Part shown: piece after piece, positions 21,658 through 36,200 of the stretch
Numbering within the stretch: position 1 is the stretch's first letter
How the letters are laid out: each line of letters starts with the position of its first letter
Origin: Chloroflexota bacterium
GTDB lineage: Bacteria > Chloroflexota > Anaerolineae > Aggregatilineales > Phototrophicaceae
Assembly (NCBI GenBank): GCA_011523705.1
Contig: WTGC01000045.1
Location: forward strand, 11,508 to 75,507
Reading direction: 5' to 3'
DNA: 64,000 nucleotides
Program-made: the position numbers and the translations under genes
The notes under the pieces: model-generated
What the model was told of the DNA's origin: nothing
The model's input: only the letters and a program-made list of their open reading frames with translations
Databases searched by the model: none

Positions 21658-21999
21658 GATCGCTCTCCAATTTCTTCATAAGCTAGTTTTACGATACTAA
21701 TTTGGACGGGGAGGCGATTGCGTATCCCTCACGTTTTCCTTTCTCCAACCGATGACAGATCAGATAGGCCCGTTATCCCGCGGGCGTCCATCGCAGATAC
21801 AAACTATGAACTCATAATAAAGCCAGTCGCGGGCTGCTCATCACCTTGGCCGGGATTTCGCATTTGGACGGCTAAAACTGATCCTTTGCCGAAATCACCG
21901 CTTGACTTAAGGGCTCTTTGTGCGCTTGTGTGGATTTACTTCGTGGCTTTTGGAGTCCGTCCGTACCCTGCGCCTCCTGCATTTTCATTGTAGCGCACT

Positions 22000-22327: not shown

Positions 22328-22750
22328 CGGCAACGAATCACTTGCGCATTCACTTGCAGTGTATGTATTTTCGATTCATTAAGAGGCGCAATTCACACAA
22401 TGTTGCTGTTGCGAGCAGAGCGTGTCGCCCGCATCGCTGTCATTGTGCGTGTGGCTGAATGAATTGGCGCCCTGTCCGACATCATCGGGCGCTCCAGCAG
22501 CGAACAGAGTGGCCAGCTCCCGCAGATTCATCACGCGCCAGCGGTCGTCGCCGACAGCTTGTCGCGAACGTCGCGCCGGGCTTATGACTGTATATATCGC
22601 GCCATGCGCGAACGCGCCTTTCTCGGCCAGATCTTAGTCGCTCTGCGAGGTAAAAGTCATTGTCACATCCGGTCGTCTATCAAGTCCGAATAGATGTTGA
22701 CAATATCGTTTCTTGAAAAGAGCGAAGTCAGCAATTGTCCATCTTTCTGG

Positions 22751-24577
22751 CTACGAGTTGCTTTCGATAGCCAGTTGCAGCTCTTGATGGTTCCGCGCAT
22801 ATGCTTCCAGAGATTGTCCCGAAGCGACGGCGTCCCATGCCTGCCGCAGGCTGGCCGCGCCGCCTTTTGGCCCAATCGGATGCGCAAACACCGCGCGTCC
22901 AGGGACGATTCCGAAATCAATAGTCTTCAGCCGCTCATACAGCATGGCTGTAGACGCCGCCCACTGGCTCCCCGCTGGGACAGGCAGAACCGGCTTGATA
23001 TGCCCCCAGGGCTTCAGGCATTCCTGCACGCTCTGCAGTACCTCCTCATCCGGGGTCTTCATCCGAGCGCCAAATCCGGGGAAAATGATGACGTCAAATC
23101 CTGCCAATCGCTGCAATTTGGTCATCACCTTTGTGTGCACGCCAAAATAAGAAATGTGCGTAAGTGGAGCAATGAAATCAAAATGCGCTACCAAAGGCGC
23201 GCGCGTATGCTTGCGTAACATTCTGATGGCGCTTAATCCCGTTGTCATGCCATTGATCATCAGCGCATTTGCCCCGCGCTCAACCGCTACATCGTGCAAG
23301 CGAATCAACTGATCCACCTCATCGGTGATATTTGCCAAGTAGACTTTCTTTTCACCCGTGATTTCTTCTGCCTTCAAGCGCGCCTTTCCCGCTTTCTCTG
23401 CTCTTTCCCGTAGCGGCGACCAGGGCACATCGCTTAGCATCTCATCGTCTTTGGCGATATCGAGGCCGCCCAACCAGCTCTGAAAGGCAAGCTCAGCAAA
23501 ATCATCCGGTGATAGCCCGATGTTGGGCTTAACCACGCCAAAGAATATCGGGCGGTCATAGACTTCCAACATGTCGCGCAAGCCTTGAATGCCAAATTTA
23601 GGACCCTCAAAGTGCTGTAAGAAACTCGCTGGGAACTCAATGTCCATCAGCTTGATCGCGGCAATGCCAGGCGAGTAAAAGGCGCCTTCACCGAGAGCCG
23701 CCGTCAAGATATTTGGGATTCTGGGGCCGAAATTGCCATGCGGGTGCGCGATGCTCACCCGACACTGGTATGTCTTGGCAGCCTCAATTGACGGTAGCGG
23801 ATAGCTTGGCCGATCTAAATTGCCAGTGACCTCCAAATCAATCACTTTGGCGCCAAATTGGTCACGCAGATCTTCATCAACGCCGACCCGTCTCCATTGC
23901 GCGGTGGACTGTTCCTGACAGAGATGTGCTGCCGCCTCTTCTGGGTCTATGACCGACTCGAAGTAATAGTCAAGAACGATGTAGTCTTCCACATTTAGAC
24001 TTGCCCGATCGGCAAAGAATCCTGTGTCGCTGTGCGCTTCGCCTTCGTTTCCAGTATTGCCGCCTCTGTCGGAGCCAGATAACGCAATGTCGGTGTCAGG
24101 ATTGCGTGCTCTTGCGTGTGTTTGGTATTTGGCGTCAATCTCGACCATTCGCTGGACTTTGGGGCCGGAGCGACTGCTCGGATCAAACTCCGACTCCATC
24201 CAGACTTTGGTGACGGCCTTGGCTAATTCGGGGCCGATCACGCGTGAGCCCATCGTCAAAACCTGAGCGTTATTGCTCTTGCGAGCGCGCTCAGCCGAGT
24301 AGGTGTCGTGGCAAGTGGCGGCCCGGATGCCCGGGACTTTGGAAGCGGTCATGGCCATGCCCAAGCCCGTGCCGCACATAAGGATGCCACGGTCAAAGTC
24401 TTCTTCGGCCACCGCCCGCGCCACCCGCTCGGCTACATCCGGGTAGTATTCCGTATCATCGGCATTGGGCACGCCAAAATCGATCACTTCAATGTCGGCA
24501 TATTCTTGCATCAGCAGTTCAGCTATCACCGCCTTCAGCGGAAAGCCGGCGTCATCACACCCAATAGCAACTTTCAT
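22751..24577 (-). CDS. fusion protein: RpiB/LacAB-family sugar-phosphate isomerase + RuBisCO-like protein (form IV large-subunit homolog)
   Basis: ATG at 24577 follows GAGGAG. The N-terminal 150 aa read MKVAIGCDDAGF...ILMCGTGLGMAMTASK (RpiB Cys motif). After a roughly 45-aa linker comes an RLP domain with EQSTAQW, VVKPNIGLS and GGLDIAKDDE (23441-23470). These correspond to RuBisCO motifs around the catalytic Lys and the carbamylated Lys-Asp-Glu metal site. It is one uninterrupted frame. Confidence 0.85.
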   Translation of the reverse strand: MKVAIGCDDAGFPLKAVIAELLMQEYADIEVIDFGVPNADDTEYYPDVAERVARAVAEEDFDRGILMCGTGLGMAMTASKVPGIRAATCHDTYSAERARKSNNAQVLTMGSRVIGPELAKAVTKVWMESEFDPSSRSGPKVQRMVEIDAKYQTHARARNPDTDIALSGSDRGGNTGNEGEAHSDTGFFADRASLNVEDYIVLDYYFESVIDPEEAAAHLCQEQSTAQWRRVGVDEDLRDQFGAKVIDLEVTGNLDRPSYPLPSIEAAKTYQCRVSIAHPHGNFGPRIPNILTAALGEGAFYSPGIAAIKLMDIEFPASFLQHFEGPKFGIQGLRDMLEVYDRPIFFGVVKPNIGLSPDDFAELAFQSWLGGLDIAKDDEMLSDVPWSPLRERAEKAGKARLKAEEITGEKKVYLANITDEVDQLIRLHDVAVERGANALMINGMTTGLSAIRMLRKHTRAPLVAHFDFIAPLTHISYFGVHTKVMTKLQRLAGFDVIIFPGFGARMKTPDEEVLQSVQECLKPWGHIKPVLPVPAGSQWAASTAMLYERLKTIDFGIVPGRAVFAHPIGPKGGAASLRQAWDAVASGQSLEAYARNHQELQLAIESNS

Positions 24578-24667
24578 GATTGTTCTCCTCGCGCTCAGAT
24601 AGCAGCGGACGTGCCGGCTGAAAGGGATTCTGCAACTGGCGAAAACTCCAAGCTTGAGCCATTCAAC

Positions 24668-24771
24668 TTGACACCGACACCCAAAGCCGATATGCTTTTG
24701 CACATACGAGCATAGCATACTCACAAGTGCAAAATCAACGTGACCTTGTCAGTTGCAGCTAGCGACAAGGT
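24668..24771 (+). promoter_or_regulatory. promoter plus two inverted repeats in the divergent control region
   Basis: TTGACA (24668-24673), 17-nt spacer, TATGCT (24691-24696). IR1 is TTTTGCAC-N23-GTGCAAAA (24696-24734) and starts at the -10 box. IR2 is ACCTTGTC-N13-GACAAGGT (24743-24771). Both have perfect 8-bp arms. Confidence 0.4.
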
Positions 24772-24857
24772 ATCAATGATATCTGGCTGTGCTATGCGCG
24801 TTCGAGGCAGTTTTGAGCGCATGTTCTGGCAAGTTCAAGGGCTGAGGCGGGCTTTTA

Positions 24858-25667
24858 ATGAAGTCATGCATAAATGGGGCGACGACTATGCCCTATTCTT
24901 TGGAAGAGGATGTAGCCGCAGCTGCACAGGCGGGATTCGAAGGTTTGGAAATCTGGTGGGATAAACTCGCCATTTATCTCGAGAAGCAGTCTATCGACGA
25001 CTTGAAACAACTGCTTGGGAGCAGCAGTCTGATTCCCGTGAGCATCTGCCCACTCAGAATTTGGCCCTTTCGTGACAGTGCGCCGGCGCGCCAGGAGTTT
25101 CGTGACGCGGTTCGAATTGCCCCTCAGATCGGCTGCGATCTGCTCGCTGTCTGTCCTGACTTTCAGCCAGCGCGCTTGACCCGAGAGGAAGCGCTCGCTA
25201 TCCACGCGCGGGAACTGTCGGACATGGCTGCGCTCGCAGCCGAGAATGGAATCCGCTTGACTGTAGAGCCGATAGGCGGGCATACGCTTGTGCCCGGACC
25301 AACCGAAGCCTTGCAGTTGATCGACATGGCCGGCGCGCCCGCCAATGTTGGCATACTGATGGACACCTTCCACTACTTCCGCTCCGGGGTTTCGGACCAG
25401 GAGATACAAGCCATCCCCTTGGACAAGTTGGATATCGTCCACGTCAATGACTGTGAAGATGGCGCGCTCAACGAGTTGACGGATGCGCAGCGCCTCTACC
25501 CGATGCGCGGCGTCATACCCACTCGCCAGCTGTCTTTGCTGAAGGATATGGGCTATGACGGTTTTCTCTCGGTGGAGATTTTCCGCCCCGAGTATTGGGA
25601 GCAGCCGATTGATGAGATTGCTGGCATGGCCTATTCGACGCTTGGCGAACTGATAGCGAGTCTCTAG
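24858..25667 (+). CDS. sugar-phosphate isomerase/epimerase (xylose-isomerase-like TIM barrel)
   Basis: Contains AGFEGLEIW, LTVEP, DTFHYF and FLSVEIF blocks, typical of the AP-endonuclease-2 / xylose-isomerase-like barrel family. Confidence 0.8.
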   Translation: MKSCINGATTMPYSLEEDVAAAAQAGFEGLEIWWDKLAIYLEKQSIDDLKQLLGSSSLIPVSICPLRIWPFRDSAPARQEFRDAVRIAPQIGCDLLAVCPDFQPARLTREEALAIHARELSDMAALAAENGIRLTVEPIGGHTLVPGPTEALQLIDMAGAPANVGILMDTFHYFRSGVSDQEIQAIPLDKLDIVHVNDCEDGALNELTDAQRLYPMRGVIPTRQLSLLKDMGYDGFLSVEIFRPEYWEQPIDEIAGMAYSTLGELIASL

Positions 25668-25743
25668 CGTAGCCCATGCATAAAATGGGCAATTGCAGGT
25701 CGACAAGCGCAATGACACGCATCCAACAGGAGGAGGTAAAGCA

Positions 25744-26667
25744 ATGTATCTAGGCGCAACAACTTGGACCTTTAGCTGGGCGCCGCCTTATGACGAAGCC
25801 CTCAAAACCATCGCCAAGCTGGGCTTTAAGGGCGCGGAACTGACAATTTGGAGCGAAGAGTTTCTGCAGGAATACTACACGGCAGAGACGAATAAACACT
25901 TGCGAAATCTAATGGCGGATTTGGGTCTGGTTCTAGCCAGCGTATTCTGTATCCCGGTAGGAATCGGAAGTGCGGAGCCGGAACAGCGGGCTGACGCTGT
26001 TGAACAACTCAAGCGCGTATTGGACGCGGCCGAGCAACTCGGCACAGACAAAATTATCGCGCTCCCGCCCAATCCATTTGACATTGATATTCCGGTGCTG
26101 CTGGGCAAAGCAACCGCACAGGAATGGAGCGTCGAATTCCCGGAAGGTCTGGATTGGGAACAAAATTGGGCTGACATGATCGATGTAATGCGGCAATTTG
26201 CTGAAGCTTGCGAAGAAAGAGAGATGCGAGTTGCATTGGAACCGCATCCGCACCGCATGATGCACAATGCCGCTGGCATGCTGCGAATTATCGACCAGAT
26301 TGAGTCCAAAGCGATCGGACTTAATCTGGATCCCAGCCATCTCTTCCCAATGGGAGAGCTGCCCAACATGGTCGCGTATGAAGTTGGCGACCGAATTTTT
26401 CACACCCATATCTCTGACAACGACGGACAGACAAACGCTCATTGGCGGCCGGGCAAAGGCAAGGTTGATTGGCGCGCATTTCTCATCGCCCTCAAGAATA
26501 TAGGATACGATGGTCCCCTTTCTCTCGAGTTAGAAGATGTGCCGGGCGCCGCCGGCTATCCCGGATTCAACCGCTCGCCGGAGTCCACGCCGGAGATCGA
26601 GCGGCAACACATCCTGGCCAAGGACTACATGACCCGACTCTGCGATGAAGTAGGAATTGAGCTGTGA
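25744..26667 (+). CDS. sugar-phosphate isomerase/epimerase (xylose-isomerase-like TIM barrel), second copy
   Basis: ATG at 25744 follows AGGAGGAGG. Contains LGFKGAELT, VALEPHP, DPSHLF, HISDN and PLSLELED blocks. Confidence 0.8.
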   Translation: MYLGATTWTFSWAPPYDEALKTIAKLGFKGAELTIWSEEFLQEYYTAETNKHLRNLMADLGLVLASVFCIPVGIGSAEPEQRADAVEQLKRVLDAAEQLGTDKIIALPPNPFDIDIPVLLGKATAQEWSVEFPEGLDWEQNWADMIDVMRQFAEACEEREMRVALEPHPHRMMHNAAGMLRIIDQIESKAIGLNLDPSHLFPMGELPNMVAYEVGDRIFHTHISDNDGQTNAHWRPGKGKVDWRAFLIALKNIGYDGPLSLELEDVPGAAGYPGFNRSPESTPEIERQHILAKDYMTRLCDEVGIEL

Positions 26668-26722
26668 TATCAGCGACGCCAGCGGAACTTCATCGACCCA
26701 AGATAGCGACCGGTACAAGTCA

Positions 26723-27763
26723 ATGAGTTTGCCAAAGCGTTCACATTTGCTGCGCAGCTGCTATCTGTTTTATCACGAGAATATGACGATGCAGGAAATT
26801 GCGAAACAGTTGCAAATCTCGCGTTTCAAAGTATCGCGCTACATCAAGGAAGCCGTTGAAAAGGGCATCGTTCAGGTCCACTTCCATGATTCAAACATCG
26901 AGCACGAGAAACTAGCCCTTCAACTTGAACGAACATTCCCGATCAAGCTGGCACTAGTCGTACCGACGCCCTATAGGTCTGATATCAGCGCCGTAAGGCT
27001 GGCAGTAGGGCAGGCTGGGGCCAGTTTATTGGCGGACATCACGCCGGAATCCTCTCTGAGCATAACTTGGGGACGCACCATTGCGCACTTGGTTGACAAC
27101 CTTCCAAGCGACCAGTTGAAGGCGCAGCGTGTGGTCGATCTCGCTGGCGGGTTCGGACAAGTTACCGACGAAATCTCGGCGCGCGCCGTCACTTTGCAGA
27201 TCGCAAGAAAATTGAATGCTGAATGCTTCCAGCTTCCTGCGCCAACCATCGTTGAAAACATCGCGACGGCACACGCATTATCTAAAGAACCGATCATTCG
27301 CAACACGCTGGAAATAGCGTCAGAGTCTGACGTCGCCATCATGGGCGTCGGACCAACCGATGTTGACTCGCTTCTCTATCGCTCCGGTTATGTGTCTGAG
27401 CGTGACTTTGCGACCTTGAAAGCGAACCATGCGGTCGGTTCGATCTTTGGCAGATTCTATGATTTGAATGGCAGGGAATGCGATACTGAGTTCCGAGAAC
27501 GCGCCATTGCCCTTACCTTTGACGACTTGCGAAAAATCCCCGAGCGCATTGCGCTAACCATGGGCGCGCACAGAATCCAAGCCATCCTGGGACTCATGTA
27601 TGGCGAACTGATTACGACGCTTGTTACCGATAGTGACACGGCGACAGCCGTATTGGAAGAGCACTTTGCTCTGCAGGGAAGACGCTCGAAAAACGCTAAG
27701 ACTGAGTCCGGGAACATTGAAGAGCGAGATCAATCGAGCCTCCTGCGGCCTGAAAAAGTGTAG
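26723..27763 (+). CDS. SorC/DeoR-type sugar-binding transcriptional regulator
   Basis: N-terminal HTH MTMQEIAKQLQISRFKVSRYIKEAVEKGIV followed by a sugar-binding domain (ITWGRT...DLAGG...IMGVG). I chose ATG 26723. Confidence 0.8.
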   Translation: MSLPKRSHLLRSCYLFYHENMTMQEIAKQLQISRFKVSRYIKEAVEKGIVQVHFHDSNIEHEKLALQLERTFPIKLALVVPTPYRSDISAVRLAVGQAGASLLADITPESSLSITWGRTIAHLVDNLPSDQLKAQRVVDLAGGFGQVTDEISARAVTLQIARKLNAECFQLPAPTIVENIATAHALSKEPIIRNTLEIASESDVAIMGVGPTDVDSLLYRSGYVSERDFATLKANHAVGSIFGRFYDLNGRECDTEFRERAIALTFDDLRKIPERIALTMGAHRIQAILGLMYGELITTLVTDSDTATAVLEEHFALQGRRSKNAKTESGNIEERDQSSLLRPEKV

Positions 27764-27769
27764 GCAAAC

Positions 27770-28525
27770 ATGACTCATTACACCATTCGTCTGATAAACA
27801 CTGGTTTTCAGGAGTTGGACAAAGCCCAGTACGCCACTTTTAGAAAAGGCGCCGGACATATCATTGAACATCCCGTTTTCGCCTTTCTGGTAGAGGGCGG
27901 CGGACGCAGGATTCTGGTGGACACGGGCATGAGCGACACGCAGCGGTCTGTGACCTACCACCATGCGGGTCGGCAGGAACCCGGCCAGGCTATACATGAA
28001 CAGCTGAGTAAGCTGGGCATTGGTACTGACGACATCGATACGATCATCTTCACCCATCTTCACTGGGACCATTGCTACAACGTCAAGCAGTTTTCCAAAG
28101 CCAGGCTGGTGGTTAGCGCCGTAGAGTACGAATTTGCGCTCAATCCGATACCCCCGTACTGGACCACGTATGAACATCCCAATTGCGGACTCGAGCCACC
28201 CTGGCTGGGTTGTGAATTCGATTTGGCGAAAGGTGAAGAAGAGGTCGTTCCCGGCATCAGCGTCTTTCCGACGCCTGGGCATAGCCCGGGTCATCAAGCG
28301 GTCTCTGTTCAGACTGAAGCCGGCGCCTGTGTTTTGGCGGGCGATCTGTTCTTTGTTCGCGAAAACTTCGCGCCTGATGTCGAGCGCGGCTGGCCGCTAA
28401 CACCAATTGGTCGCTTCGCCAGCTTTGTCGACCTGTGGCACAGCATGGAAACGGCGATTGAGCGGGCCGATCACATTTTGTTGACACATGATCCGTCCCA
28501 ACTTGACGGGCAAATCTTCCCCTAG
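27770..28525 (+). CDS. metallo-beta-lactamase-fold hydrolase (lactonase-like)
   Basis: Contains THLHWDH (the HxHxDH zinc motif) and PTPGHSPGH. Size and layout resemble the AHL/sugar-lactonase subgroup. Confidence 0.75.
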   Translation: MTHYTIRLINTGFQELDKAQYATFRKGAGHIIEHPVFAFLVEGGGRRILVDTGMSDTQRSVTYHHAGRQEPGQAIHEQLSKLGIGTDDIDTIIFTHLHWDHCYNVKQFSKARLVVSAVEYEFALNPIPPYWTTYEHPNCGLEPPWLGCEFDLAKGEEEVVPGISVFPTPGHSPGHQAVSVQTEAGACVLAGDLFFVRENFAPDVERGWPLTPIGRFASFVDLWHSMETAIERADHILLTHDPSQLDGQIFP

Positions 28526-28629: not shown

Positions 28630-29913
28630 ATGAGATCCAAATTTGTACGTATCGCATGCGTATTGTTGGCGGTTTCGGTACTTGCGCTGCCAATGGGTTC
28701 CATTCTGGCTCAAGACGACGGGGTCACGCTCATAATCGAAAGCTGGCGCGTCGACGATGCCGACGAATGGAACGACGTGATTCTGCCGGCTTTCGAAGCC
28801 CACTATCCAAACATCAATGTCGACTTTCAGCCGACCATCAATACTCAATACAGCGCCACCTTGGGCACGAAGATTGAAGCGGGCACGGCGGGCGACCTGA
28901 TTATGGTCGAACCCTTTGACTACCGCCTCGAAATGTACCTCAACGGCGACCTGGCCAATCTGAACGACCTGGGCGGCCTGGACAATTTCAGCGCCGGCGC
29001 GCTTAGCGCCTGGAGCACCGATGACGGCGAGCTCTTCGGCGTGCCGCTGGCGGCGGTGATCCATGGCTTTATGTACAACGCCGATATCTTTGCCGAACTC
29101 GGCTTGGAAGAACCCACGACCGCGCAGGAATTTCTCGATCTACTGGAAGCCGTGAAGCAAGACGGCCAGTATGTGCCGCTCGCGATGGGAACGGCTGACG
29201 GCTTTGTGCCCGGTCTGCTGGGTTTGCAGCTGGCGGGCCAGCCCTATTGGCGTGGCGAAGAAGGTCGTCTGGCGCTTATTGATGGCAGCGGTAAGTTCAC
29301 CGACCAAGGTTATATCGATGCCTGGGCCTTCCTGGCAGCGTGGGCGGATTACATGCCCGATGGCTACCAGGCGGTCTCTTACCCGGATATGCAGAATCTC
29401 TTCACCCTGGGCGGCTCGGCAGTATATCCAGCCGGGTCATGGGAAATCTCGATTTTCAACCAGCTGGTGGGGGATGATTTTGCCATCGGCGCTTTCCCGC
29501 CGCCCGTGCCCGAAGATGGCGCGGATTGCTTTATCAACGACCACATGGACATGGGTATGGCCATGAACGCCGATTCCCAGCACCCGGATGAAGCGCAGCT
29601 TTTCCTCGAGTGGCTGGGCTCGGCCGAGTTCGCTGAACTTTGGAATAATGCGCTGCCCGGCTTCTTCGCCATGTCTAACCATTTGGTCGAAGCATCCGAT
29701 CCGATGGTGCAGGAATACGCGGGCTGGCGCGCGAATTGCGGGTCGTCGCCGCGCAACGCCTACGCCATCATCTCGCGGGGTGAACCCAACACCGACAGCG
29801 AGTTGATTCGCGTGACGCAACTGGTCATGAATGGCGAAATGACGCCCCAAGAAGCCGGCGAAACGGTACAGGCAGGCCTCGCCTCCTGGTACGAGCCGCA
29901 AATGGGGGAGTGA
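28630..29913 (+). CDS. family-1 sugar ABC substrate-binding protein
   Basis: Signal peptide MRSKFVRIACVLLAVSVLALPMGSILAQ. Composition is typical of solute-binding family 1. Confidence 0.85.
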   Translation: MRSKFVRIACVLLAVSVLALPMGSILAQDDGVTLIIESWRVDDADEWNDVILPAFEAHYPNINVDFQPTINTQYSATLGTKIEAGTAGDLIMVEPFDYRLEMYLNGDLANLNDLGGLDNFSAGALSAWSTDDGELFGVPLAAVIHGFMYNADIFAELGLEEPTTAQEFLDLLEAVKQDGQYVPLAMGTADGFVPGLLGLQLAGQPYWRGEEGRLALIDGSGKFTDQGYIDAWAFLAAWADYMPDGYQAVSYPDMQNLFTLGGSAVYPAGSWEISIFNQLVGDDFAIGAFPPPVPEDGADCFINDHMDMGMAMNADSQHPDEAQLFLEWLGSAEFAELWNNALPGFFAMSNHLVEASDPMVQEYAGWRANCGSSPRNAYAIISRGEPNTDSELIRVTQLVMNGEMTPQEAGETVQAGLASWYEPQMGE

Positions 29914-29983
29914 GTTTGCGAGTCTGATGAGAGTCTGAAAAAGTGAGCAGACCCAGAATTCTTGCAGCATAGTCGAATTGTAG

Positions 29984-30050
29984 GGGCGGCATACCATGCC
30001 GCCCGAAAACCACGGTTCACAGCGGCAGTGGGCGACTGGATTGGTCGCCC
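29984..30050 (+). terminator. two intercistronic GC hairpins between the binding-protein and permease genes
   Basis: GGGCGGCAT-acc-ATGCCGCCC (29984-30004, 9 bp) and GGGCGAC-tggattg-GTCGCCC (30030-30050, 7 bp). They lie inside a 273-nt gap. No U-tract. Confidence 0.35.
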
Positions 30051-30186
30051 CTATAGGGCTCGCGACCGTTGCATGACTTGCTTGGTTGTACTGAGATATA
30101 TTTCCACGATACTTGCCCCGCCCGAAGCAGATAAGCCTCTCAGAACAGAACTGAGCCAAGGTCGAAGTCTGCCGAGGAGAAATTCA

Positions 30187-31134
30187 ATGACAGCCGGACT
30201 GTCGCGAAGAAACCAACCCAACCCCAATAAGCCCTTTCCCACGCATATCATGGTCTTCCTGGCGCCGGCAGTCTTCGTCTACGGTCTCTTCATGATCTAT
30301 CCCTTGTTTGACTCCTTGCGCCTGGGTTTCTTCGCGCAGGTGACGCGCGGCGTGGAGCAGTTTGTGGGCTTCGACAATTACATAACGCTGATGACGGACG
30401 ACGCTATTTTGCAGCCGCGGCTGCTGAATGCCCTGAAGAACAGCTTCCTCTTCTTTGCCGTCAACATGCTCGTCCAAAATCCAATTGCGCTTATGCTCGC
30501 GGCTGTGCTTTCTACGAAGACCAGAGGCGGTTTGCTTTACCGCGTGCTGATCTTCTCACCGGCTATCCTCTCGCTGGCGATTGCCGGATTTGTCTGGAGA
30601 CTCGTATTAAGCCCGCTCTGGGGCATCGTCTACGATATGTTGAAGGCTTTGGGGCTGGGGGCTTACGCGCAGCCTTGGCTGGGGCTCGAGAGCACTGCGC
30701 TGATCACGCTGGCGCTAATCTCCGCCTGGCAGTTCTTGGGCATACCGATGATGCTCTACTACGCGACCCTGATTAGCATTCCCAACGATCTCTTTGAAGC
30801 CGCCTATGTCGACGGCGCGACTGACTGGCAGGTTTTCTGGCGAATTAAGTTGCCGCTATTGATGCCAATGATCGGCATTATTTCACTGCTGACCTACATC
30901 GGCAACTTCAATGCCTTTGATGTCATCTTCGCGCTGAAAGGCGCGGACGCCGGCCCCAATTACGCCAGCGATACCATGATGACCTTTTTCTACCGCACCT
31001 TCTTCGGGTCGGGATTCCAGAAAGCCGATCCGCACATGGGGGCGGCAGTCGCCGGGACGATGTTTGTCATTCTCATGGCCGGCGTATTGATATACTTCTT
31101 CATCCGTCGGCGAGTCAATTCCTATGAGTTTTGA
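30187..31134 (+). CDS. sugar ABC permease (MalF-like)
   Basis: ATG at 30187 follows GAGGAG. EAA loop FEAAYVDGATDWQVFWRIKLP. The longer track ORF from 29962 would cross the hairpins. Confidence 0.85.
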   Translation: MTAGLSRRNQPNPNKPFPTHIMVFLAPAVFVYGLFMIYPLFDSLRLGFFAQVTRGVEQFVGFDNYITLMTDDAILQPRLLNALKNSFLFFAVNMLVQNPIALMLAAVLSTKTRGGLLYRVLIFSPAILSLAIAGFVWRLVLSPLWGIVYDMLKALGLGAYAQPWLGLESTALITLALISAWQFLGIPMMLYYATLISIPNDLFEAAYVDGATDWQVFWRIKLPLLMPMIGIISLLTYIGNFNAFDVIFALKGADAGPNYASDTMMTFFYRTFFGSGFQKADPHMGAAVAGTMFVILMAGVLIYFFIRRRVNSYEF

Positions 31135-31147
31135 GGCGAGGCGCGTC

Positions 31148-32035
31148 ATGGGATGGAAATCTGACGCCAACAAGCAGCAATTGCGGACGCTCACGCCCGC
31201 CATCGACTGGCGTCATCTGACAACCAAGATTTTGAAGCACTGGATGCTGATTGCCTTTGCCTTGCTTTCTACCGCGCCTGTTGCTCTAGTCATCATCAAT
31301 TCATTCAAGGCAAGGCGGGCCATCTTCAGGAATCCATACCACCTGCCCACCGCGGAGACATTTGACCTGGTCGGCTACGAGACTGTATTCGCAAAGTCCC
31401 AATTTCAGGTCTACTACTTCAACAGTTTATTCGTGACGCTAATTGCCCTCGCTCTCATTCTCTTATTCGGAACCATGGTGGCTTTTGCCCTTGCCGAGTA
31501 TTCCTTCCCGGGAAACAACTTGCTTCGGTTATTTTTCCTGTTGGGCATCATTATACCTATACGATTGGGCTCCGTAAGCCTGCTGCGTTTGATCGACTCT
31601 CTGGATCTTATCGGCACCTTATGGGCACTGATCGTAGTGTATATCGCCGGGGGGCTGCCCTTTGCCGTTTTCATATTGACGCAGTTTATGGCTCAGGTGC
31701 CGGGCGAGTTGAAGGACGCCGCGCGCGTGGACGGCGCCAGTGAATACCGGGTGTTTTGGCTCATCCTACCCATCATCCGCCCGGCGACCGGCACCGTGGC
31801 GGCGATTTCCATCATTCCCATGTGGAACGATCTCTGGTTTCCACTCGTCCTGGCGCCGGGGGAAGCGACGCGGACCGTGACCCTGGGTGCGCAGCAATTC
31901 ATGGGGCAATTCTCCAACGACTGGAACGCTTTGCTGGCGGCGCTTTCGCTCTCGTCAGTTCCCGTATTGATCATCTATTTCATCTCCTCAAAGCAGCTCC
32001 TGCAGGGATTGACCGCTGGCGCCATTAAGAACTAG
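31148..32035 (+). CDS. sugar ABC permease (MalG-like)
   Basis: ATG at 31148. EAA loop KDAARVDGASEYRVFWLILP. C-terminus LLQGLTAGAIKN. Confidence 0.85.
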   Translation: MGWKSDANKQQLRTLTPAIDWRHLTTKILKHWMLIAFALLSTAPVALVIINSFKARRAIFRNPYHLPTAETFDLVGYETVFAKSQFQVYYFNSLFVTLIALALILLFGTMVAFALAEYSFPGNNLLRLFFLLGIIIPIRLGSVSLLRLIDSLDLIGTLWALIVVYIAGGLPFAVFILTQFMAQVPGELKDAARVDGASEYRVFWLILPIIRPATGTVAAISIIPMWNDLWFPLVLAPGEATRTVTLGAQQFMGQFSNDWNALLAALSLSSVPVLIIYFISSKQLLQGLTAGAIKN

Positions 32036-32093: not shown

Positions 32094-33218
32094 ATGAAAG
32101 GCAAAGTCAAGCTGGGAATCGCTGGCTGTGGGTTCGCCGGCACACAAACGATGTACGCCCCCATTCTGCGCTTGCTTGAGAAGGGTCGGGTCACGGCGCT
32201 GATGGACCCGGATCAGGCGGCGCTGGACTTTATGACCCAGAACTACGGCGACTTCGATTGCTACAAGGACTACGGCGAGTTTCTGGCGCATGCCGATATC
32301 GATGCGGTGCTGGTCGCTTCGCCCGTTCATTTGCATGAGCGACAAGTCATTCAAGCGGCGCAAGCGGGCAAACATATCCTGTGCGAAAAACCAATGGCGC
32401 CTACGATTGAGACATGTGATCGTATGCGTAAAGCGGCCCGGACGCACGATGTGACGCTTATGATCGGCTTCGTCAAGCGCTTCGACAAGAGCCTCCAATT
32501 GGCGCAGAATCTCATACAGGCTGGGAGGCTAGGCCAGCTGTTTCACATTCGCGCTGAGGTGAGCTGGTGCCACGACCTGTCGCCGCTCGGCTTCAACTGG
32601 CGGCAGTCCTTGCGTACGCTGGGCGGCATCTTTCAGGACAATGCCAGTCATATCGTGGATCTGTGCCGCTGGTGGGCTGGCGAGGTTCAAAGTGTCAGCG
32701 GGCAGGCGATGATCCTCAGGCCCGACTGGGAAGTCGAAACGCATGCCCATGCTACCCTTCGACACGAAAGTGGCGTCGTTTCCACCATTCATGCCAGCAA
32801 TGTGTCGCAGAAGCCGATGACTGAGTATTTTCTGATCGAAGGTACGCAAGCGGCGCTGGAGCTTCACTTTGGCCCGGCAATGAAGTACAGCTCGCCGGAG
32901 CCGTATTCCATCCGCCTGTGGGAGCGCGGCCAAACGCAGACAGAATTGACTCTCTTCAATTACGGCAATCTCGACCGGGAATTGCGCGAACACGGACCCT
33001 ACAAGCGGCAGGTTGACCACTTCTGCGAATGCATACTGGAGAGGAGAGCGCCCGCGATAGACGGCTTGACCGGGCGTAAAGCCATTGAAGTGGTCAACGC
33101 AGTCTATCTGTCTTCATGGCAGGACCAAACGATTAAACTGCCGCTGTCTGGATCGGGTGACCTGGAGCGCATATTCCGCGACATGCGGATGCAATTCGGA
33201 GGTCAAGACGATGCATAA
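32094..33218 (+). CDS. Gfo/Idh/MocA-family NAD(P)-dependent oxidoreductase
   Basis: N-terminal Rossmann motif KLGIAGCGFAG and an ILCEKPMA motif. Confidence 0.85.
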   Translation: MKGKVKLGIAGCGFAGTQTMYAPILRLLEKGRVTALMDPDQAALDFMTQNYGDFDCYKDYGEFLAHADIDAVLVASPVHLHERQVIQAAQAGKHILCEKPMAPTIETCDRMRKAARTHDVTLMIGFVKRFDKSLQLAQNLIQAGRLGQLFHIRAEVSWCHDLSPLGFNWRQSLRTLGGIFQDNASHIVDLCRWWAGEVQSVSGQAMILRPDWEVETHAHATLRHESGVVSTIHASNVSQKPMTEYFLIEGTQAALELHFGPAMKYSSPEPYSIRLWERGQTQTELTLFNYGNLDRELREHGPYKRQVDHFCECILERRAPAIDGLTGRKAIEVVNAVYLSSWQDQTIKLPLSGSGDLERIFRDMRMQFGGQDDA

Positions 33219-36200
33219 GGCGCGCTGGACCTTGGAGAAAATCTCCGCTCGTCTGCAGTTCCTATTCGAGGCGGCGATTTACCGGCGGAGCCAGCCCCTG
33301 AGCCCCTTTATGTTCCATGCCGGTTCTCAACCGATGGTGGCGATTGATGTAGACGACCGCGACTGGGAGGTCATCGAACCCGGCAGCTATTGGGGCGAAC
33401 TGCGTCAGGAATTCACGCTGCGGACTCGTTTCACGGTGCCCGCGGATTGGGAGAAGCCGGTCGCGCTTTCTCTCCCCCTGGGCCTTAGCAAGAGCCTGGA
33501 AGCGTTGTCCTTCCTCTATGGGCCCGAGGCATTGGCCTACCTGGATGGCGTCGCCTATCGCGGCGTCGACCCCAATCATCAGGAATTGCTGCTGCCTGAC
33601 CGCGTACTTGACGGCGAGGAACATCAGCTCGCAATGCATGGTTGGGCCGGCATCAAAGACGAGCGCTACGAAATGGGACTTCCCCGCCTGGTACAGATCG
33701 ATCAGCCGACGCGTGACTTCATGACCGCTGCCGAAACCGCACTCGAAGTCGCCATACAGCTCCCGGAAAACAGCCCCATTCGTGTCAATCTGATCAACGC
33801 TTTGGATGCGGCACTTCTGCTGCTCGATTTGCGCGAGCCATTGGAGGCAGCCTTCTACGAGAGTGTTCATGCCGCCCATCGCGAATTGATGGAGGGGATA
33901 GCCAGTGCGGGTCCGCCGATGGATGTCGTCGTTGCTGGCGTCGGTCACGCCCATATTGACGTAGCCTGGCTGTGGCCGCTGCGCCAGACGCGCCAGAAGG
34001 TCGCCCGAACCTTCAGCACGGCGCTGCGCTTGATGGAGCAATATCCGGAATTCACCTTCACCCAGAGTCAGCCGCAGCTTTACCAGTACATAGCCGATGA
34101 TCATCCGGAGATGATGGCGCAGATCAAGAAGCGCGTCGCCGAAGGGCGTTGGGAGACGATTGGCGGCATGTGGGTGGAAGCCGACTGCAACTTGACGGGC
34201 GCGGAAGCGCTCGCGCGCCAGTTCCTGCTTGGTCGCCGCTACTTCCTGGAAACCTTTGGCGAGCGCGAATCGCCAATTCTGTGGCTACCCGATGTATTTG
34301 GCTATGCCTGGCAGCTCCCCCAATTGATTCAGCAAGCCGGGCTCTCGTATTTTGTGACCGCCAAACTCAGTTGGAATCAGTACAATCGCATTCCCTACGA
34401 TCAATTCTGGTGGCAGGGTTTGGACGGCAGCAGAATCCTGACCTATTTCATCACCACTTCAAAGCCCGGTTGGTGGGGCGCCACTTACAGCGCCGACCTG
34501 TCGCCTGAAGAGATCATCGCCACCTGGGATGGCAGCCAGCAAAAGGAACTGCGCAGCGAGTTCATGATTGCCTACGGGCATGGCGATGGGGGCGGGGGAC
34601 CGACGCGCGCCATGCTGGACCGCAGCCGCGAGATGGCGGCGCATCCCGGCTTGCCCAAAGTACGGCTGAGTACCGCTATCGACTTCATGGAGCAGCTCGA
34701 ACGTGATTCTGGTGATAAGCTGCCCACCTGGAATGGCGAGTTATACCTAGAGCTGCACCGAGGCACTTATACCAGCCAGGCGCGCAACAAACGCGAAAAT
34801 CGCAAGTGCGAAGTCCTGCTTCATGACGCCGAATTCTTGGCGGCCTGGGCGTCTCTTAATGGCGATTTCGCTTATCCGCATGAAGAACTTCGCCGCGCCT
34901 GGGAATTGCTCTGCTTGAACCAGTTCCACGACATCATACCCGGCTCGTCCATTCAGCAGGTCTATGCGGACAGCCTGCGCGACTACGAAGAAATCCGGCG
35001 CATTGGCGAGCAAATCCGCGAGGAATCCTTGGTCGCCCTAGATCGTCTCCTGCCGTCGGAGACTGCGCTGGCGATCTACAATCCCACGTCTTTCCCACGA
35101 TCGGAAGTGGTTGAGGTCTCCGGCGAATGGCTTTCGGATGAGACGATCGTAACCACCTTGGAAGGTAGGACTCTGCCGGCGCAACGATTCATTGACGGAC
35201 AATTGATCCAATGCCCGGTCGTGCCTCCGTATGGAGTTCTGGCGCTGCGCATTTGTACCGGCGAGATTCCCGCGACTGAGAACCAACTCTACGTCGGTGA
35301 CATAAGCGGAGCGCCGAAGGATGCGGATGCTTCGGAAATGTGCTCGATTGTGATGGAGAATACACTATTGCGAGTTGAGTTCGATCAGTCTGGCGACATC
35401 GTGAGGCTGTTTGACAAGTGCGCGGATCGCGAAGTTCTGGCTTCCGGACAAAGAGCCAATCAGTGGCAGGTATTTGAAGATCGCCCATTGGACTGGGAGG
35501 CTTGGGATATTGACATCTTCTACGATGAAAAGATGTGGCTGGCTGATCCGGCAGATAGCATCAAAGTCGTGGAGAGCGGTCCCTTGCGCGCATGCCTGGA
35601 GATCAAACGGCGCGCCTTCAATAGCGGCATCACGCAGCGCGTCTATATGGTCGCGGACAGCGCCCAGATCGATTTTGATACCTGGATAAACTGGCAGGAG
35701 CGCCGCCTGCTGCTCAAGGTCGCTTTCCCAGTGGACATCCTTAGTCCGAGAGCGACTTACGAGATTCAGTGGGGCAATGTTGAGCGCCCAACCCATAGCA
35801 ACACCTCATGGGATTGGGCTCAATTTGAAAGCTGCGCCCATAAGTGGGTCGATCTGAGCGAGGGCGATTACGGCGTCAGCTTGCTAAATGACTGCAAATA
35901 CGGCTACGACATTGCCGGAAATGTGTTGCGGTTGACCGCCTTGAAAGGGGCGATGTTCCCCGATCCTGATGCTGATTTGGGCGAACACCATTTCAGCTAC
36001 AGCTTACTGCCGCACACTGGCGATTGGCGCAATGGCACAGTACCGGCTGCCTATAGCCTGAACAATCCGCTCATCGTCCACCGCGTACAGGACGAGCCTC
36101 AGGGCGCTCTTGAAGTAGATCGTAAGTCGCTTATTCATGTCGATGCCCCTCAAATCATCGTTGAAACTGTGAAGCGCGCCGAGGATGGAAACGGCTTAAT

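What the first reader, a model, noticed from the sequence alone, without database searches (positions are those of the whole stretch)
22751..24577. Single-chain fusion of an RpiB/LacAB-type isomerase with a RuBisCO-like protein
What the sequence shows. One uninterrupted 609-codon frame starts at ATG 24577 with a strong RBS. Its N-terminal 150 aa are RpiB-like and include the catalytic-Cys block LMCGTGLGM. After a roughly 45-aa Gly/Asp/Asn-rich linker, the remaining 410 aa or so are RuBisCO large-subunit-like. That part has VVKPNIGLS and GGLDIAKDDE (23441-23470), so the carbamylated Lys and the Asp/Glu metal ligands are retained. The second Lys of the KPK motif is Asn, as expected for a form IV (non-carboxylating) protein. 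Established knowledge, from memory. RLPs act as enolases/isomerases in methionine salvage. They also act as 3-oxo-isoapionate-4-phosphate decarboxylase or transcarboxylase in D-apionate catabolism. RpiB-family enzymes include D-erythrulose-4-phosphate isomerase. Inference. A covalent fusion would couple an RLP reaction to isomerisation of its ketose-phosphate product. I do not recall this fusion being described.
Basis: partly seen in the sequence, partly recalled or inferred. Interest (0 to 1): 0.7.

Follow-up and report, generated by a model that had tools for sequence, protein, structure and literature searches.

The report
RpiB isomerase fused to RuBisCO-like protein
A real, conserved gene in a group of Chloroflexota joins a sugar-phosphate isomerase to a "Photo-type" RuBisCO-like protein whose job has been unknown since 2001, and the fusion and its neighbouring genes point to a testable role in sugar breakdown.

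Summary
Window 22751-24577 (-) is one 608-codon gene: an RpiB/LacAB domain (aa 1-152), a 32-aa variable linker, and a form IV RuBisCO-like protein (aa 185-608).

The fusion is not an artefact. The same single ORF occurs in at least 10 independent Chloroflexota assemblies, including complete chromosomes. Both halves are under strong purifying selection (dN/dS 0.12 and 0.09). The linker varies but always stays in frame.

The sister lineage (L091) has the same locus with rpiB and the RLP as separate genes 72 nt apart, so the fusion arose by read-through. Some descendants later deleted the RpiB part.

The RLP half belongs to the IV-Photo clade (Chlorobium tepidum RLP type), whose function is unknown. 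An rpiB-like gene also lies directly beside IV-Photo-type RLP genes in Desulfobacterota, Spirochaetota and a gammaproteobacterial MAG. It usually comes with an MBL-fold lactonase-like gene, a UPF0261 kinase and a class II aldolase-family gene. All of these are in the window's 15-kb sugar locus.

The most likely reading is two successive enediol-type steps on a monophosphorylated keto-sugar or sugar acid. The exact substrate is unresolved.

No paper describing this fusion was found.

The parts
22751..24577 (-). Complete fused gene: 608 codons plus stop. RpiB-like isomerase, linker, IV-Photo RuBisCO-like protein.
   Evidence: The same single ORF of 607-614 aa occurs in other assemblies.
24122..24577 (-). 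RpiB/LacAB-family domain, aa 1-152. Cys68 and Thr70 (CGTGLG) are kept. The two His of canonical RpiB are replaced by Asp9 and Ser101 (KSNNAQ).
   Evidence: Pfam PF02502 E 7e-49. NCBIfam best hit is D-erythrulose-4-P isomerase at 193.8 bits, under its cut-off of 240; the RpiB subfamily model is met at 167 against 135. PDB alignments and motif comparison. dN/dS 0.12.
24026..24121 (-). Linker, aa 153-184. Variable, rich in Gly/Asp/Asn/Thr, always in frame.
   Evidence: 37% mean identity and dN/dS 0.52 among 9 fused orthologues. Its length matches the rpiB tail plus 72-nt spacer plus RLP head of the unfused sister locus L091.
22754..24025 (-). RuBisCO-like protein, form IV, IV-Photo type, aa 185-608.
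   Evidence: PDB 1TEL/1YKW E about 1e-182 and 2QYG E 1e-168. Active-site pattern identical to the RLPs of phototrophs. dN/dS 0.09.
24585..24590 (-). Shine-Dalgarno-like GAGGAG, 7 nt before ATG 24577.
   Evidence: Read directly from the sequence.
24578..24857 (.). Divergent intergenic region between the fusion gene and the sugar operon. It contains GTGAGTATGCTATGCTCGTATGTGCA (about 24699-24724), which is shared with relatives that lost the RpiB part.
   Evidence: The generic promoter scan found no more sites than expected by chance.
24858..25667 (+). Xylose-isomerase-like TIM barrel protein. Closest solved structure is B. subtilis IolI.
   Evidence: Pfam AP_endonuc_2. PDB 1i60 E 3e-28. Syntenic in all fused loci.
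25693..26667 (+). Second xylose-isomerase-like TIM barrel protein, with weak ketose 3-epimerase-like matches. Called as 307 aa in orthologues.
26657..27763 (+). SorC/DeoR-type sugar-phosphate-sensing regulator. ORF limits given; orthologues are 346 aa.
   Evidence: Pfam Sugar-bind E 1e-61. DeoR and LsrR models both score below their cut-offs.
27770..28525 (+). MBL-fold hydrolase, lactonase-like. This is the gene family that most often accompanies IV-Photo-type RLPs (25 loci).
   Evidence: Family F1.
28630..32035 (+). ABC sugar transporter: one solute-binding protein and two permeases.
32094..33218 (+). GFO/IDH/MocA oxidoreductase, IolG-like but below the cut-off.
   Evidence: Syntenic (family F17).
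33085..36408 (+). GH38 alpha-mannosidase-family glycosidase. ORF limits given; the true start is probably later.
   Evidence: Also present in L021 and L091.
36423..37439 (+). Zn-dependent dehydrogenase, Tdh/IolM-like.
   Evidence: family F32.
37448..38092 (+). Class II aldolase / epimerase / decarboxylase-family protein.
   Evidence: family F14, 11 loci.
38155..39372 (+). UPF0261 protein, the candidate ATP-dependent kinase of the pathway.
   Evidence: family F8, 15 loci. Kinase activity of the family was shown for MarK (PMC12624787).

Best explanation
This is a genuine bifunctional enzyme gene maintained by selection.

**How it arose.** An rpiB-like gene and a IV-Photo-type RuBisCO-like protein (RLP) gene were once adjacent and co-transcribed. 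They fused in frame in one lineage of Chloroflexota (MAGs labelled Phototrophicaceae, Aggregatilineales and 'Anaerolineae'), and the former spacer became a flexible 32-aa linker.

**Where it sits.** The gene is transcribed divergently from a carbohydrate-utilisation locus of about 15 kb. That locus encodes an ABC importer, a GH38 glycosidase, two dehydrogenases, two xylose-isomerase-like TIM barrels, an MBL-fold lactonase-like hydrolase, a UPF0261 kinase, a class II aldolase-family enzyme and a SorC regulator.

**Proposed mechanism (inferred, not shown).**
1. The imported sugar is oxidised and/or ring-opened, then phosphorylated by the UPF0261 kinase.
2. The RLP half uses its retained carbamyl-Lys/Asp/Glu Mg2+ site and Lys350 base to make a 2,3-enediolate of a keto-sugar or keto-acid monophosphate. 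It then shifts the carbonyl, epimerises, or decarboxylates.
3. The RpiB half uses its Cys68 base to interconvert the resulting ketose phosphate and an aldose phosphate.

My single best guess is a tetrulose phosphate converted to D-erythrose 4-phosphate. That would be a LerI/EryH-plus-DerI/EryI pair in one chain.

**Confidence by tier.** The fusion is real and functional: about 0.95. The two halves act in one pathway on consecutive or nearby steps: about 0.6. The tetrulose-to-erythrose-4-P chemistry: about 0.25.
For: **Shown: the fusion is real.**
- The ORF is uninterrupted and has two domains.
- The same single ORF occurs in 15 clusters at 82-95% identity, and in 10 species-level genome loci including 3-4.5 Mb chromosomes.
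- dN/dS is 0.12 for the RpiB half, 0.09 for the RLP half and 0.52 for the linker. No frame break occurs.

**Shown: how it arose.**
- The sister lineage L091 (NJ bootstrap 98) has the identical synteny with separate rpiB (75% identical) and RLP genes, 72 nt apart and in the same frame.
- The rpiB tail, spacer and RLP head together make 30 codons, against a 32-37 aa linker in the fused forms.

**Shown: the coupling is independent of the fusion.** A separate rpiB-like gene lies directly next to the RLP gene in 15 of the 80 species-level loci, in three arrangements:
- upstream: L018, L019, L022, L024;
- downstream on the same strand: five Desulfobulbales-type loci and two spirochaete loci;
- convergent: four Desulfobacterales loci.

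**Shown: a recurrent partner set.** MBL-fold hydrolase (25 loci), UPF0261 (15), class II aldolase family (11), and a SorC or GntR regulator accompany the RLP. All are present in the window. UPF0261 is a kinase family.

**Shown: catalytic residues.**
- RLP half, kept: E60, W66, K175, K201, D203, E204 and H294 equivalents.
- RLP half, changed: the distal-phosphate residues R295, H298 and H327 are Phe, Ile and Ile; K177 is Asn and K334 is Arg.
- RpiB half: Cys and Thr are kept. The two His of canonical RpiB are replaced in every RLP-linked RpiB, as in PDB 5ifz and 3qd5.
- The best NCBIfam model for the RpiB half is D-erythrulose-4-P isomerase.

**Shown: no obvious competitor for the RLP's role.** No TIM-family (LerI/EryH-like) gene occurs in the window or in any RpiB-linked locus.

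**From established knowledge.**
- All characterised RLPs start from an enediolate (PMC10176493).
- LerI plus DerI convert tetrulose phosphates to erythrose-4-P (PMC12994016).
- The ring-opening role of the missing RpiB His is from my memory of the RpiB literature.
Against: - No substrate or product is known for any IV-Photo RLP, so every chemical step is inference.
- The D-erythrulose-4-P isomerase model is below its cut-off (193.8 against 240). The generic RpiB subfamily model is met, so ribose-5-P activity is not excluded.
- Close relatives (L003/L004, L020, L090) deleted the RpiB part and kept the RLP and the whole locus. The RpiB step is therefore dispensable in cis.
- 55 of the 80 loci have no rpiB within 10 kb. 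These include all green sulfur bacteria, Chromatiaceae and Alphaproteobacteria.
- In the window the kinase and the aldolase-family gene lie 13 kb from the fusion gene.
- The hydrophobic Phe/Ile/Ile pocket may fit a deoxy or methyl tail better than the CH2OH of a tetrulose.
- The order of the two steps is not determined.
Confidence: 0.6

Rival explanations
1. Apionate-type chemistry. The RLP half is a 3-oxo-acid-phosphate decarboxylase like OiaX. The RpiB half is DerI, finishing the route to erythrose-4-P.
For: - OiaX is the top NCBIfam hit for the RLP half, and DerI is the top hit for the RpiB half.
- The locus has a dehydrogenase, a lactonase-like hydrolase, isomerase-like TIM barrels and a kinase. 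This matches the logic of oxidative sugar-acid routes (PMC12994016).
Against: - OiaX scores 231 bits against a cut-off of 700, no better than the form III RuBisCO model at 225.
- The RLP is 60-65% identical to C. tepidum-type RLPs, and only E 1e-56 to the next RLP clade.
- No DUF1537 kinase was detected among the genes examined.
- The class II aldolase-family gene, which is OtnC-like in L077, could already be the decarboxylase.
- The minimal operons L077 and L018 contain no dehydrogenase to make a 3-oxo acid.
Confidence: 0.2
2. Diketone-phosphate chemistry. The IV-Photo RLP enolises or isomerises a 2,3-diketo or deoxy-keto sugar phosphate with a small hydrophobic tail, in the manner of MtnW, the DeepYkr RLP or LsrG. 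The RpiB half handles a neighbouring aldose-ketose step.
For: - The distal phosphate site is replaced by Phe, Ile and Ile in the whole clade.
- R. palustris RLP2 slowly isomerises 5-methylthioribulose-1-P in vitro (reported in PMC5893883).
- In green sulfur bacteria and in L026 the RLP gene lies near a gene that passes the LsrF (P-HPD thiolase) equivalog cut-off, at 450 against 297 bits.
- SorC regulators of the LsrR/DeoR type are present.
Against: - Deleting RLP2 has no methionine-salvage phenotype.
- No LsrF-like gene occurs in the window or in the RpiB-linked loci (no F11 hit).
- The transporters are generic sugar types.
Confidence: 0.12
3. No pathway coupling. The RpiB half is simply the cell's ribose-5-phosphate isomerase, and it became attached to a neighbouring gene by chance.
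For: - The RpiB subfamily model is met.
- The domain can be deleted without loss of the RLP.
- Many Chloroflexota use RpiB as their Rpi. This is from memory and was not tested.
Against: - Adjacency recurs in three gene orders and several phyla.
- All RLP-linked copies share the non-canonical His-to-Asp/Asn/Pro and His-to-Ser signature.
- A housekeeping gene would not be expected to be lost by deletion in close relatives.
Confidence: 0.07
4. Artefact or pseudogene: an assembly join, a frameshift, or a recently lost stop codon with no function.
For: None beyond the prior possibility. One relative, P0030, carries a frameshifted C-terminus.
Against: - At least ten independent assemblies carry the fusion, with linkers of different sequence and the same frame.
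- Both halves are under strong purifying selection.
Confidence: 0.01

Closest known systems
IV-Photo RuBisCO-like proteins: Chlorobium/Chlorobaculum tepidum RLP (PDB 1TEL, 1YKW) and Rhodopseudomonas palustris RLP2 (2QYG)
   Same: The RLP half aligns end to end at E about 1e-182 and 1e-168. Twenty of the 21 RuBisCO active-site positions examined are the same residue as in the phototroph RLPs; the S379 equivalent is Ala here and Gly in them.
   Different: The known proteins are stand-alone, about 430 aa, come from phototrophs and have no rpiB nearby. Their reaction is unknown. The protein here carries an N-terminal RpiB domain and sits in a heterotroph-type sugar locus.
Tetrulose-phosphate isomerase pairs: LerI plus DerI (M. 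smegmatis tetritol route) and EryH plus EryI (Brucella erythritol route)
   Same: These are two consecutive enediol isomerisations ending at D-erythrose-4-P. The second enzyme is RpiB-family (from memory). The RpiB half scores best on the DerI model and shares the HDTYSAERA and SNNAQ motifs with PDB 5ifz. PMC12994016 describes LerI and DerI.
   Different: The first enzyme in the known pairs is TIM-family (from memory), not an RLP, and the known pairs are separate proteins. The DerI equivalog cut-off is not met. No tetritol kinase or dehydrogenase set is evident here.
D-apionate pathway: RLP OiaX (3-oxo-isoapionate-4-P decarboxylase) followed by LerI and DerI (Carter et al. 2018, cited; pathway details from memory)
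   Same: An RLP and an RpiB-family isomerase work in one sugar-acid catabolic route, preceded by a dehydrogenase, a lactonase and a kinase.
   Different: It is a different RLP clade (the OiaX model scores 231 against 700). The kinase family is DUF1537 there (from memory), against UPF0261 here. The proteins are not fused.
Form III-c RuBisCO fused to ribose-1,5-bisphosphate isomerase in CPR bacteria (Jaffe et al. 2018, PMC6389311)
   Same: This is a precedent for a RuBisCO-superfamily protein fused to the sugar-phosphate isomerase of the adjacent pathway step. The authors used it as evidence for pathway membership.
   Different: That case involves a bona fide carboxylase and an e2b2-family isomerase in the AMP pathway. 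This case involves a non-carboxylating form IV protein and an RpiB-family isomerase.
DeepYkr RLP (R. rubrum and R. palustris RLP1), a 5-methylthioribulose-1-P 1,3-isomerase
   Same: It shows that an RLP can move a carbonyl along a ketose 1-phosphate through enediol intermediates. This is the kind of reaction proposed here.
   Different: It is a different clade that works in methionine salvage with a cupin partner. RLP2, the Photo type, does not take part in that pathway.

Membership tests
RuBisCO superfamily, form IV (RuBisCO-like protein) | RuBisCO large-chain N-terminal and catalytic domains are present. | tested here: met
   PF02788 (28 bits against a cut-off of 20.7) and PF00016 (183 bits against 30.1).
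RuBisCO superfamily, form IV (RuBisCO-like protein) | Residues essential for carboxylation are substituted, while the carbamyl-Lys/Asp/Glu metal site may be kept. | tested here: met
   Alignment to form III 2cwx gives K177N, R295F, H298I, H327I, K334R, S379A, G381S and G404R. K175, K201, D203, E204 and H294 are kept.
IV-Photo clade of RLPs | Closest relatives are the C. tepidum RLP and R. palustris RLP2 rather than other RLP clades. | tested here: met
   1TEL scores 609 bits and 2QYG 563 bits. The next clade, 3nwr, scores 194 bits, and MtnW structures score about 140 bits. In the NJ tree the non-phototroph sequences form a clade with bootstrap 100, next to the phototroph RLPs (the rooting is arbitrary).
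IV-Photo clade of RLPs | Shared active-site signature. | tested here: met
   Of the 21 positions, 18 are invariant in all 50 sequences compared. Two have a single exception each. The S379 equivalent is Ala in most non-phototrophs and Gly in phototrophs.
Bona fide RuBisCO (forms I-III) | Curated family score and a complete catalytic residue set. | tested here: not met
   TIGR03326 (type III) scores 225 against a cut-off of 497. NF003252 scores 209 against 438. Catalytic residues are missing.
OiaX, 3-oxo-isoapionate-4-phosphate decarboxylase | NCBIfam equivalog cut-off. | tested here: not met
   NF042437 scores 230.8 bits against a cut-off of 700.
MtnW, 2,3-diketo-5-methylthiopentyl-1-phosphate enolase | NCBIfam equivalog cut-off. 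| tested here: not met
   NF007095 scores 201.5 against 409. TIGR03332 scores 169 against 513.6.
RpiB/LacA/LacB sugar-phosphate isomerase family | Family domain and curated subfamily scores. | tested here: met
   PF02502 scores 165.8 against 24.7. TIGR00689 scores 134.3 against 88.3, and NF004051 scores 167.4 against 135.
RpiB/LacA/LacB sugar-phosphate isomerase family | Catalytic Cys and Thr in the CGTGxG motif. | tested here: met
   C68-G-T70-G-L-G is invariant in the 15 fused proteins and in all RLP-linked RpiBs.
Canonical ribose-5-phosphate isomerase B | rpiB equivalog score, and the two His of the GxDH and HND motifs seen in C. thermocellum RpiB (3he8). | tested here: not met
   TIGR01120 scores 137.1 against 138.65. 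GCDD and KSNNAQ replace GSDH and EHNDAN. Enzyme activity was not tested.
D-erythrulose-4-phosphate isomerase (DerI/EryI) | NCBIfam equivalog cut-off. | tested here: not met
   NF051858 scores 193.8 against 240. It is nevertheless the highest-scoring RpiB-family model.
D-erythrulose-4-phosphate isomerase (DerI/EryI) | Interconversion of D-erythrulose-4-P and D-erythrose-4-P. | not testable with these tools
   This needs an enzyme assay.
Functional gene fusion (Rosetta-stone type) of pathway neighbours | One conserved ORF, both domains under purifying selection, and the same two genes found separate but adjacent elsewhere. | tested here: met
   Searches show L091 with separate genes in the same synteny.

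The most novel reading that the evidence does not exclude
The whole IV-Photo RLP clade, including the orphan Chlorobium tepidum and R. palustris RLP2 proteins, catalyses one and the same enediolate-based isomerisation or decarboxylation of a sugar (acid) monophosphate. This step belongs to a so far undescribed catabolic module made of an MBL-fold lactonase-like hydrolase, a UPF0261 kinase, a class II aldolase-family enzyme and an RpiB-like isomerase. The fused protein is then a two-step isomerase, with the RLP replacing the TIM-type LerI/EryH, that delivers an aldose phosphate such as erythrose-4-P.
Probability: 0.25. Interest if true: 0.8.

Novelty: new variant of a known kind. Interest (0 to 1): 0.62.

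Why it matters
The IV-Photo RLPs were the first RuBisCO-like proteins studied, in 2001. Crystal structures exist, but no reaction is known for them, and knock-outs gave pleiotropic or no phenotypes.

A conserved fusion and repeated adjacency to an RpiB-like isomerase give a concrete hypothesis for this orphan clade. So does the recurrent set of a UPF0261 kinase, an MBL-fold hydrolase and a class II aldolase-family enzyme. The biochemical search narrows to ketose or keto-acid monophosphates that the locus's own kinase can make.

Because the active site is essentially invariant across the clade, an answer obtained with the fused enzyme would probably transfer to the phototroph proteins.

It would also add a second physiological role for the UPF0261 kinase family, whose first activity was reported only in 2025. 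And it is a second case of a RuBisCO-superfamily protein fused to the isomerase of a neighbouring step.

Tried and rejected
- **AlphaFold2 on the full-length protein.** Using the 15-sequence alignment of fused proteins gave mean pLDDT 38 and pTM 0.34. The model is unusable, so I made no fold search and say nothing about domain packing.
- **Search of 1.84 billion cluster representatives.** None of the best 150 hits was a two-domain protein. The fused proteins are apparently hidden under unfused representatives at 50% clustering, so this search cannot measure how widespread the fusion is.
- **Generic promoter/terminator scan of 21600-24900.** It found no more sites than shuffled sequence.
- **L046 as a possible UPF0261-RLP fusion.** The RLP seemed to lie in a 759-aa open frame. 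That is an artefact of a masked run of N joining two genes.
- **"Unfused" close relatives in the protein database.** At least one is a mis-called start. P0025 is an internal Met of a 613-aa fused ORF, and P0023 and P0024 look the same but were not checked.
- **RLP replacing UlaD in Desulfocapsaceae.** I considered this for the ascorbate-like cluster next to the RLP module. It is rejected because a bona fide UlaD equivalog is present there.
- **Insertion of rpiB into an unfused ancestor.** I considered this for the RpiB-less variants. The sister locus L091 already has rpiB, so deletion is the simpler reading.
- **Papers not held in the library.** Tabita et al. 2007 (PMC2168653) and Carter et al. 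2018 (PMC6435334) could not be read. Statements about them rest on citing papers and on memory.
- **First tree script.** It timed out and was redone.
Full report
**1. Observation.**
Translating window 22751-24577 on the minus strand gives 608 codons and a stop, with no interruption. The ATG at 24577 is preceded by GAGGAG at 24585-24590. A longer GTG-started frame exists mechanically, but all orthologues begin at MKVAIGC.

Pfam finds LacAB_rpiB at residues 3-143 (E 7e-49), RuBisCO_large_N at 199-319 and RuBisCO_large at 329-606 (E 7e-54).

The linker is about 32 residues (153-184). This follows from alignment to RpiB structures, which match through residue 152, and to the C. tepidum RLP, which matches from residue 184-186.

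**2. The fusion is real and maintained.**
- A search of 5.8 billion proteins found 15 clusters of 607-614 aa at 82-95% identity with both domains. Their contigs reach 4.5 Mb.
- A scan of one genome per species returned 80 loci. My ORF and HMM analysis shows a single two-domain ORF in ten of them, all Chloroflexota MAGs labelled Phototrophicaceae, Aggregatilineales, Anaerolineae or Chloroflexota.
- Among nine fused orthologues the RpiB part has dN/dS 0.12 and 88% mean identity. The RLP part has dN/dS 0.09 and 87% identity. The linker has dN/dS 0.52 and 37% identity, and is always in frame.
- An assembly join, a frameshift or a decaying pseudogene is therefore excluded.
- Public annotation partly hides the fusion. 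P0025, annotated as a 413-aa RuBisCO-domain protein, is an internal start of a 613-aa fused ORF.

**3. Origin and later loss.**
- In a neighbour-joining tree of RLP domains, the fused proteins form one clade (bootstrap 91) with P0026 as sister (bootstrap 98).
- The P0026 locus (L091) has the same synteny as the window: GH38, permeases, binding protein, MBL-fold gene, SorC regulator and two divergent xylose-isomerase-like genes. There, however, a 153-aa rpiB gene (75% identical to the window's RpiB half) and the RLP gene are separate. They are 72 nt apart, with an RBS, and in the same frame.
- The rpiB tail, spacer and RLP head together equal 30 codons, against linkers of 32-37 residues. The linker is thus most simply the former spacer read through.
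- Three independent assemblies (L003/L004, L020, L090) have the same synteny but an RLP of 429-442 aa with no RpiB part.
- Their upstream DNA shares the window's promoter-proximal element GTGAGTATGCTATGCTCGTATGTGCA. The last 15 nt before their ATG match the end of the fused linker (GNKR-M against GNER-V).
- With L091 as outgroup, this is a secondary deletion of the RBS, the RpiB part and most of the linker.

**4. What the RLP half is.**
It matches the Chlorobium tepidum RLP (1TEL, 1YKW; E about 1e-182) and R. palustris RLP2 (2QYG; E 1e-168). These scores are far better than for any other RLP or RuBisCO. It is therefore the IV-Photo type.

No curated functional model is met: OiaX scores 231 against 700, type III RuBisCO 225 against 497, and MtnW 201 against 409.

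Aligned to a form III RuBisCO (2cwx), the pattern at the RuBisCO active-site positions is as follows:

| Status | Positions (RuBisCO numbering) |
|---|---|
| Kept | E60, W66, K175, K201, D203, E204, H294, G380, G403 |
| Changed | T65Q, N123G, T173V, K177N, R295F, H298I, H327I, K334R, S379A, G381S, G404R |

Across 50 family members, phototrophs included, these 21 positions are essentially invariant. Only the S379 equivalent differs, Ala against Gly.

So the metal and carbamate site and the enolising base are kept. The distal-phosphate site is replaced by hydrophobic residues, which fits a monophosphate substrate. The chemistry is probably the same throughout the clade.

The literature I could read says the Photo RLP reaction is still unknown. 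It also says RLP2 plays no role in methionine salvage (PMC5893883).

**5. What the RpiB half is.**
- The catalytic CGTGLG motif (Cys68, Thr70) is invariant.
- The RpiB/LacAB family and RpiB subfamily models are met. The strict rpiB equivalog is just missed (137.1 against 138.65).
- The best-scoring model is D-erythrulose-4-phosphate isomerase, at 193.8 bits against a cut-off of 240.
- Compared with a canonical RpiB (3he8: GSDH, EHNDAN), the window protein has GCDD and KSNNAQ. PDB 5ifz and 3qd5 show the same kind of replacements, and all 14 separate RLP-linked RpiB genes share the SNNA motif and lack the first His.
- From memory of RpiB mechanism, one of these His residues assists furanose ring opening. 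Its absence would fit an acyclic substrate such as a tetrulose or tetrose 4-phosphate. This is inference.

**6. Coupling beyond the fusion.**
Of the 80 species-level loci, 25 have the RpiB-like module directly attached to or beside the RLP gene:

| Arrangement | Number of loci | Where |
|---|---|---|
| Fused | 10 | Chloroflexota |
| rpiB immediately upstream | 4 | Two Anaerolineae-type MAGs, a Caldilineales MAG, a gammaproteobacterial MAG |
| rpiB immediately downstream, same strand | 7 | Desulfobulbales-type and spirochaetes |
| Convergent | 4 | Desulfobacterales |

None of the green sulfur, purple sulfur or alphaproteobacterial loci has an rpiB within 10 kb.

I clustered all neighbouring ORFs into families. 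The families that recur with the RLP are:
- an MBL-fold, AiiA- or pyridoxolactonase-like hydrolase (25 loci);
- UPF0261 (15 loci);
- a class II aldolase-family protein (11 loci);
- Zn-dependent dehydrogenases;
- SorC or GntR regulators.

UPF0261 was shown in 2025 to be an ATP-dependent kinase family (PMC12624787).

A spirochaete operon (L077) is a compact version of the set. It has the MBL hydrolase, a ribose-type ABC importer, UPF0261, a SorC regulator, the class II aldolase-family gene (best hit 3-oxo-tetronate-4-P decarboxylase, below cut-off), the RLP and RpiB.

**7. The window's locus.**
The plus-strand operon that diverges from the fusion gene runs from 24858 to 39372. It encodes, in order:
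- an IolI-like TIM barrel and a second xylose-isomerase-like TIM barrel;
- a SorC regulator;
- the MBL hydrolase;
- a binding protein and two permeases;
- a GFO/IDH/MocA oxidoreductase;
- a GH38 glycosidase;
- a Zn-dependent dehydrogenase;
- the class II aldolase-family protein;
- UPF0261.

The window therefore holds the complete recurrent set, plus an apparent upper pathway for an imported glycoside or cyclitol-like sugar.

No TIM-family gene (the family of LerI/EryH) is in the window or in any RpiB-linked locus.

**8. Mechanism.**
Shown: a two-domain enzyme, both domains with intact catalytic residues, in a sugar catabolic locus with a candidate kinase.

Inferred: the sugar is oxidised and/or ring-opened, then phosphorylated. 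The RLP half forms a Mg2+-stabilised 2,3-enediolate, as all characterised RLPs do (PMC10176493). It resolves this by reprotonation (a carbonyl shift or epimerisation) or by decarboxylation. The RpiB half performs the adjoining ketose-aldose isomerisation.

My most specific guess is conversion of a tetrulose phosphate to D-erythrose-4-P. This would parallel LerI plus DerI (PMC12994016), with the RLP in place of the TIM-type enzyme. I give it about 0.25.

The apionate-like decarboxylase version (about 0.2) and a diketone or deoxy-sugar version (about 0.12) remain open. The diketone version is suggested by the hydrophobic pocket and by the LsrF-equivalog gene near the RLP in green sulfur bacteria.

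The loss of the RpiB part in close relatives shows that the isomerase step need not be supplied in cis.

**9. Comparison and novelty.**
- The RLP half is a member of the IV-Photo clade (features tested and met).
- The RpiB half is a member of the RpiB/LacAB family. It is not a certified RpiB or DerI equivalog.
- The nearest precedent for the architecture is the form III-c RuBisCO fused to ribose-1,5-bisphosphate isomerase in CPR bacteria (PMC6389311). That involves different families and a carboxylating enzyme.
- Full-text searches for RLP together with RpiB or with gene fusion found no description of this protein. The database entries carry no names.
- I rate it a new variant of a known kind.
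- Its main value is as Rosetta-stone evidence for a long-standing orphan enzyme clade.

Noticed in passing
window 21700-22750: About 1 kb downstream of the fusion gene has no long ORF. It holds only fragments, including a ParA-like N-terminus (22169-22333, minus strand: MPMSTAVAILNQKVGSAKTPITINLAGALARLGLKVLVFDL). It looks like a degraded remnant and not a gene.
   Followed up: no
L062, L069 and other green sulfur bacterial loci; L026 4535-5410: In green sulfur bacteria the RLP gene directly follows a DeoC-family gene (family F11). The L026 member of this family, which lies a few genes upstream of the RLP there, passes the NCBIfam equivalog cut-off for LsrF, the 3-hydroxy-5-phosphonooxypentane-2,4-dione thiolase (450 against 297 bits). 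In green sulfur bacteria this gene follows a bifunctional class II aldolase/short-chain dehydrogenase gene, and an SDR gene follows the RLP.
   Followed up: partly
L091 10293-14281: In the sister locus with separate rpiB and RLP genes, the RLP is followed by a GH31 glycosidase and a two-subunit Dak1/Dak2 (dihydroxyacetone/ketose kinase family) pair. These were not found in the window or in any other locus.
   Followed up: partly
L043 1978-6849: In Desulfocapsaceae the RLP module (UPF0261, MBL, aldolase II, RLP, RpiB, MFS transporter) lies beside an ascorbate-type set. The UlaD gene passes its equivalog cut-off. The UlaG-like, UlaE-like and UlaF-like genes and an FGGY kinase were assigned only at Pfam-family level.
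   Followed up: partly
L001 7401-9242 (GCA_026708115.1); proteins P0023, P0024, P0025: Public gene calls truncate the fused ORF to an internal Met, so the RpiB half is missing from the deposited protein. This was verified for P0025 and only suspected for P0023 and P0024. P0030 has a frameshifted C-terminus.
   Followed up: partly
L003 7941-8000, L020, L090 (upstream of the unfused RLP genes): The 5' untranslated region of the RpiB-less variants still reads in frame as the end of the former linker (FGNKR-M...). This marks a deletion whose upstream end falls near a short TGGA/TGGG match.
   Followed up: yes
L046 4280-6556: A run of masked N joins a UPF0261 gene and the RLP gene into one apparent 759-aa frame. 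It is not a fusion, but it shows UPF0261 directly upstream of the RLP in another spirochaete.
   Followed up: yes
L030 11535-12242: A triose-phosphate-isomerase-family gene lies about 260 nt downstream of an RLP gene in a Desulfobacterales genome that has no rpiB nearby. It is the only TIM-family hit in all loci held.
   Followed up: no
protein P0159: A 308-aa protein from the representative library matches the RpiB half twice, so it is a tandem RpiB-RpiB protein.
   Followed up: no
window 16675-21657 and 40729-48591: The window carries further carbohydrate loci. One has a GH3 glycosidase with an ABC importer. Another has a beta-helix protein, a GH88-like protein and a second ABC importer with an IclR regulator (39875-40777). 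Together these indicate a glycan-degrading heterotroph.
   Followed up: no
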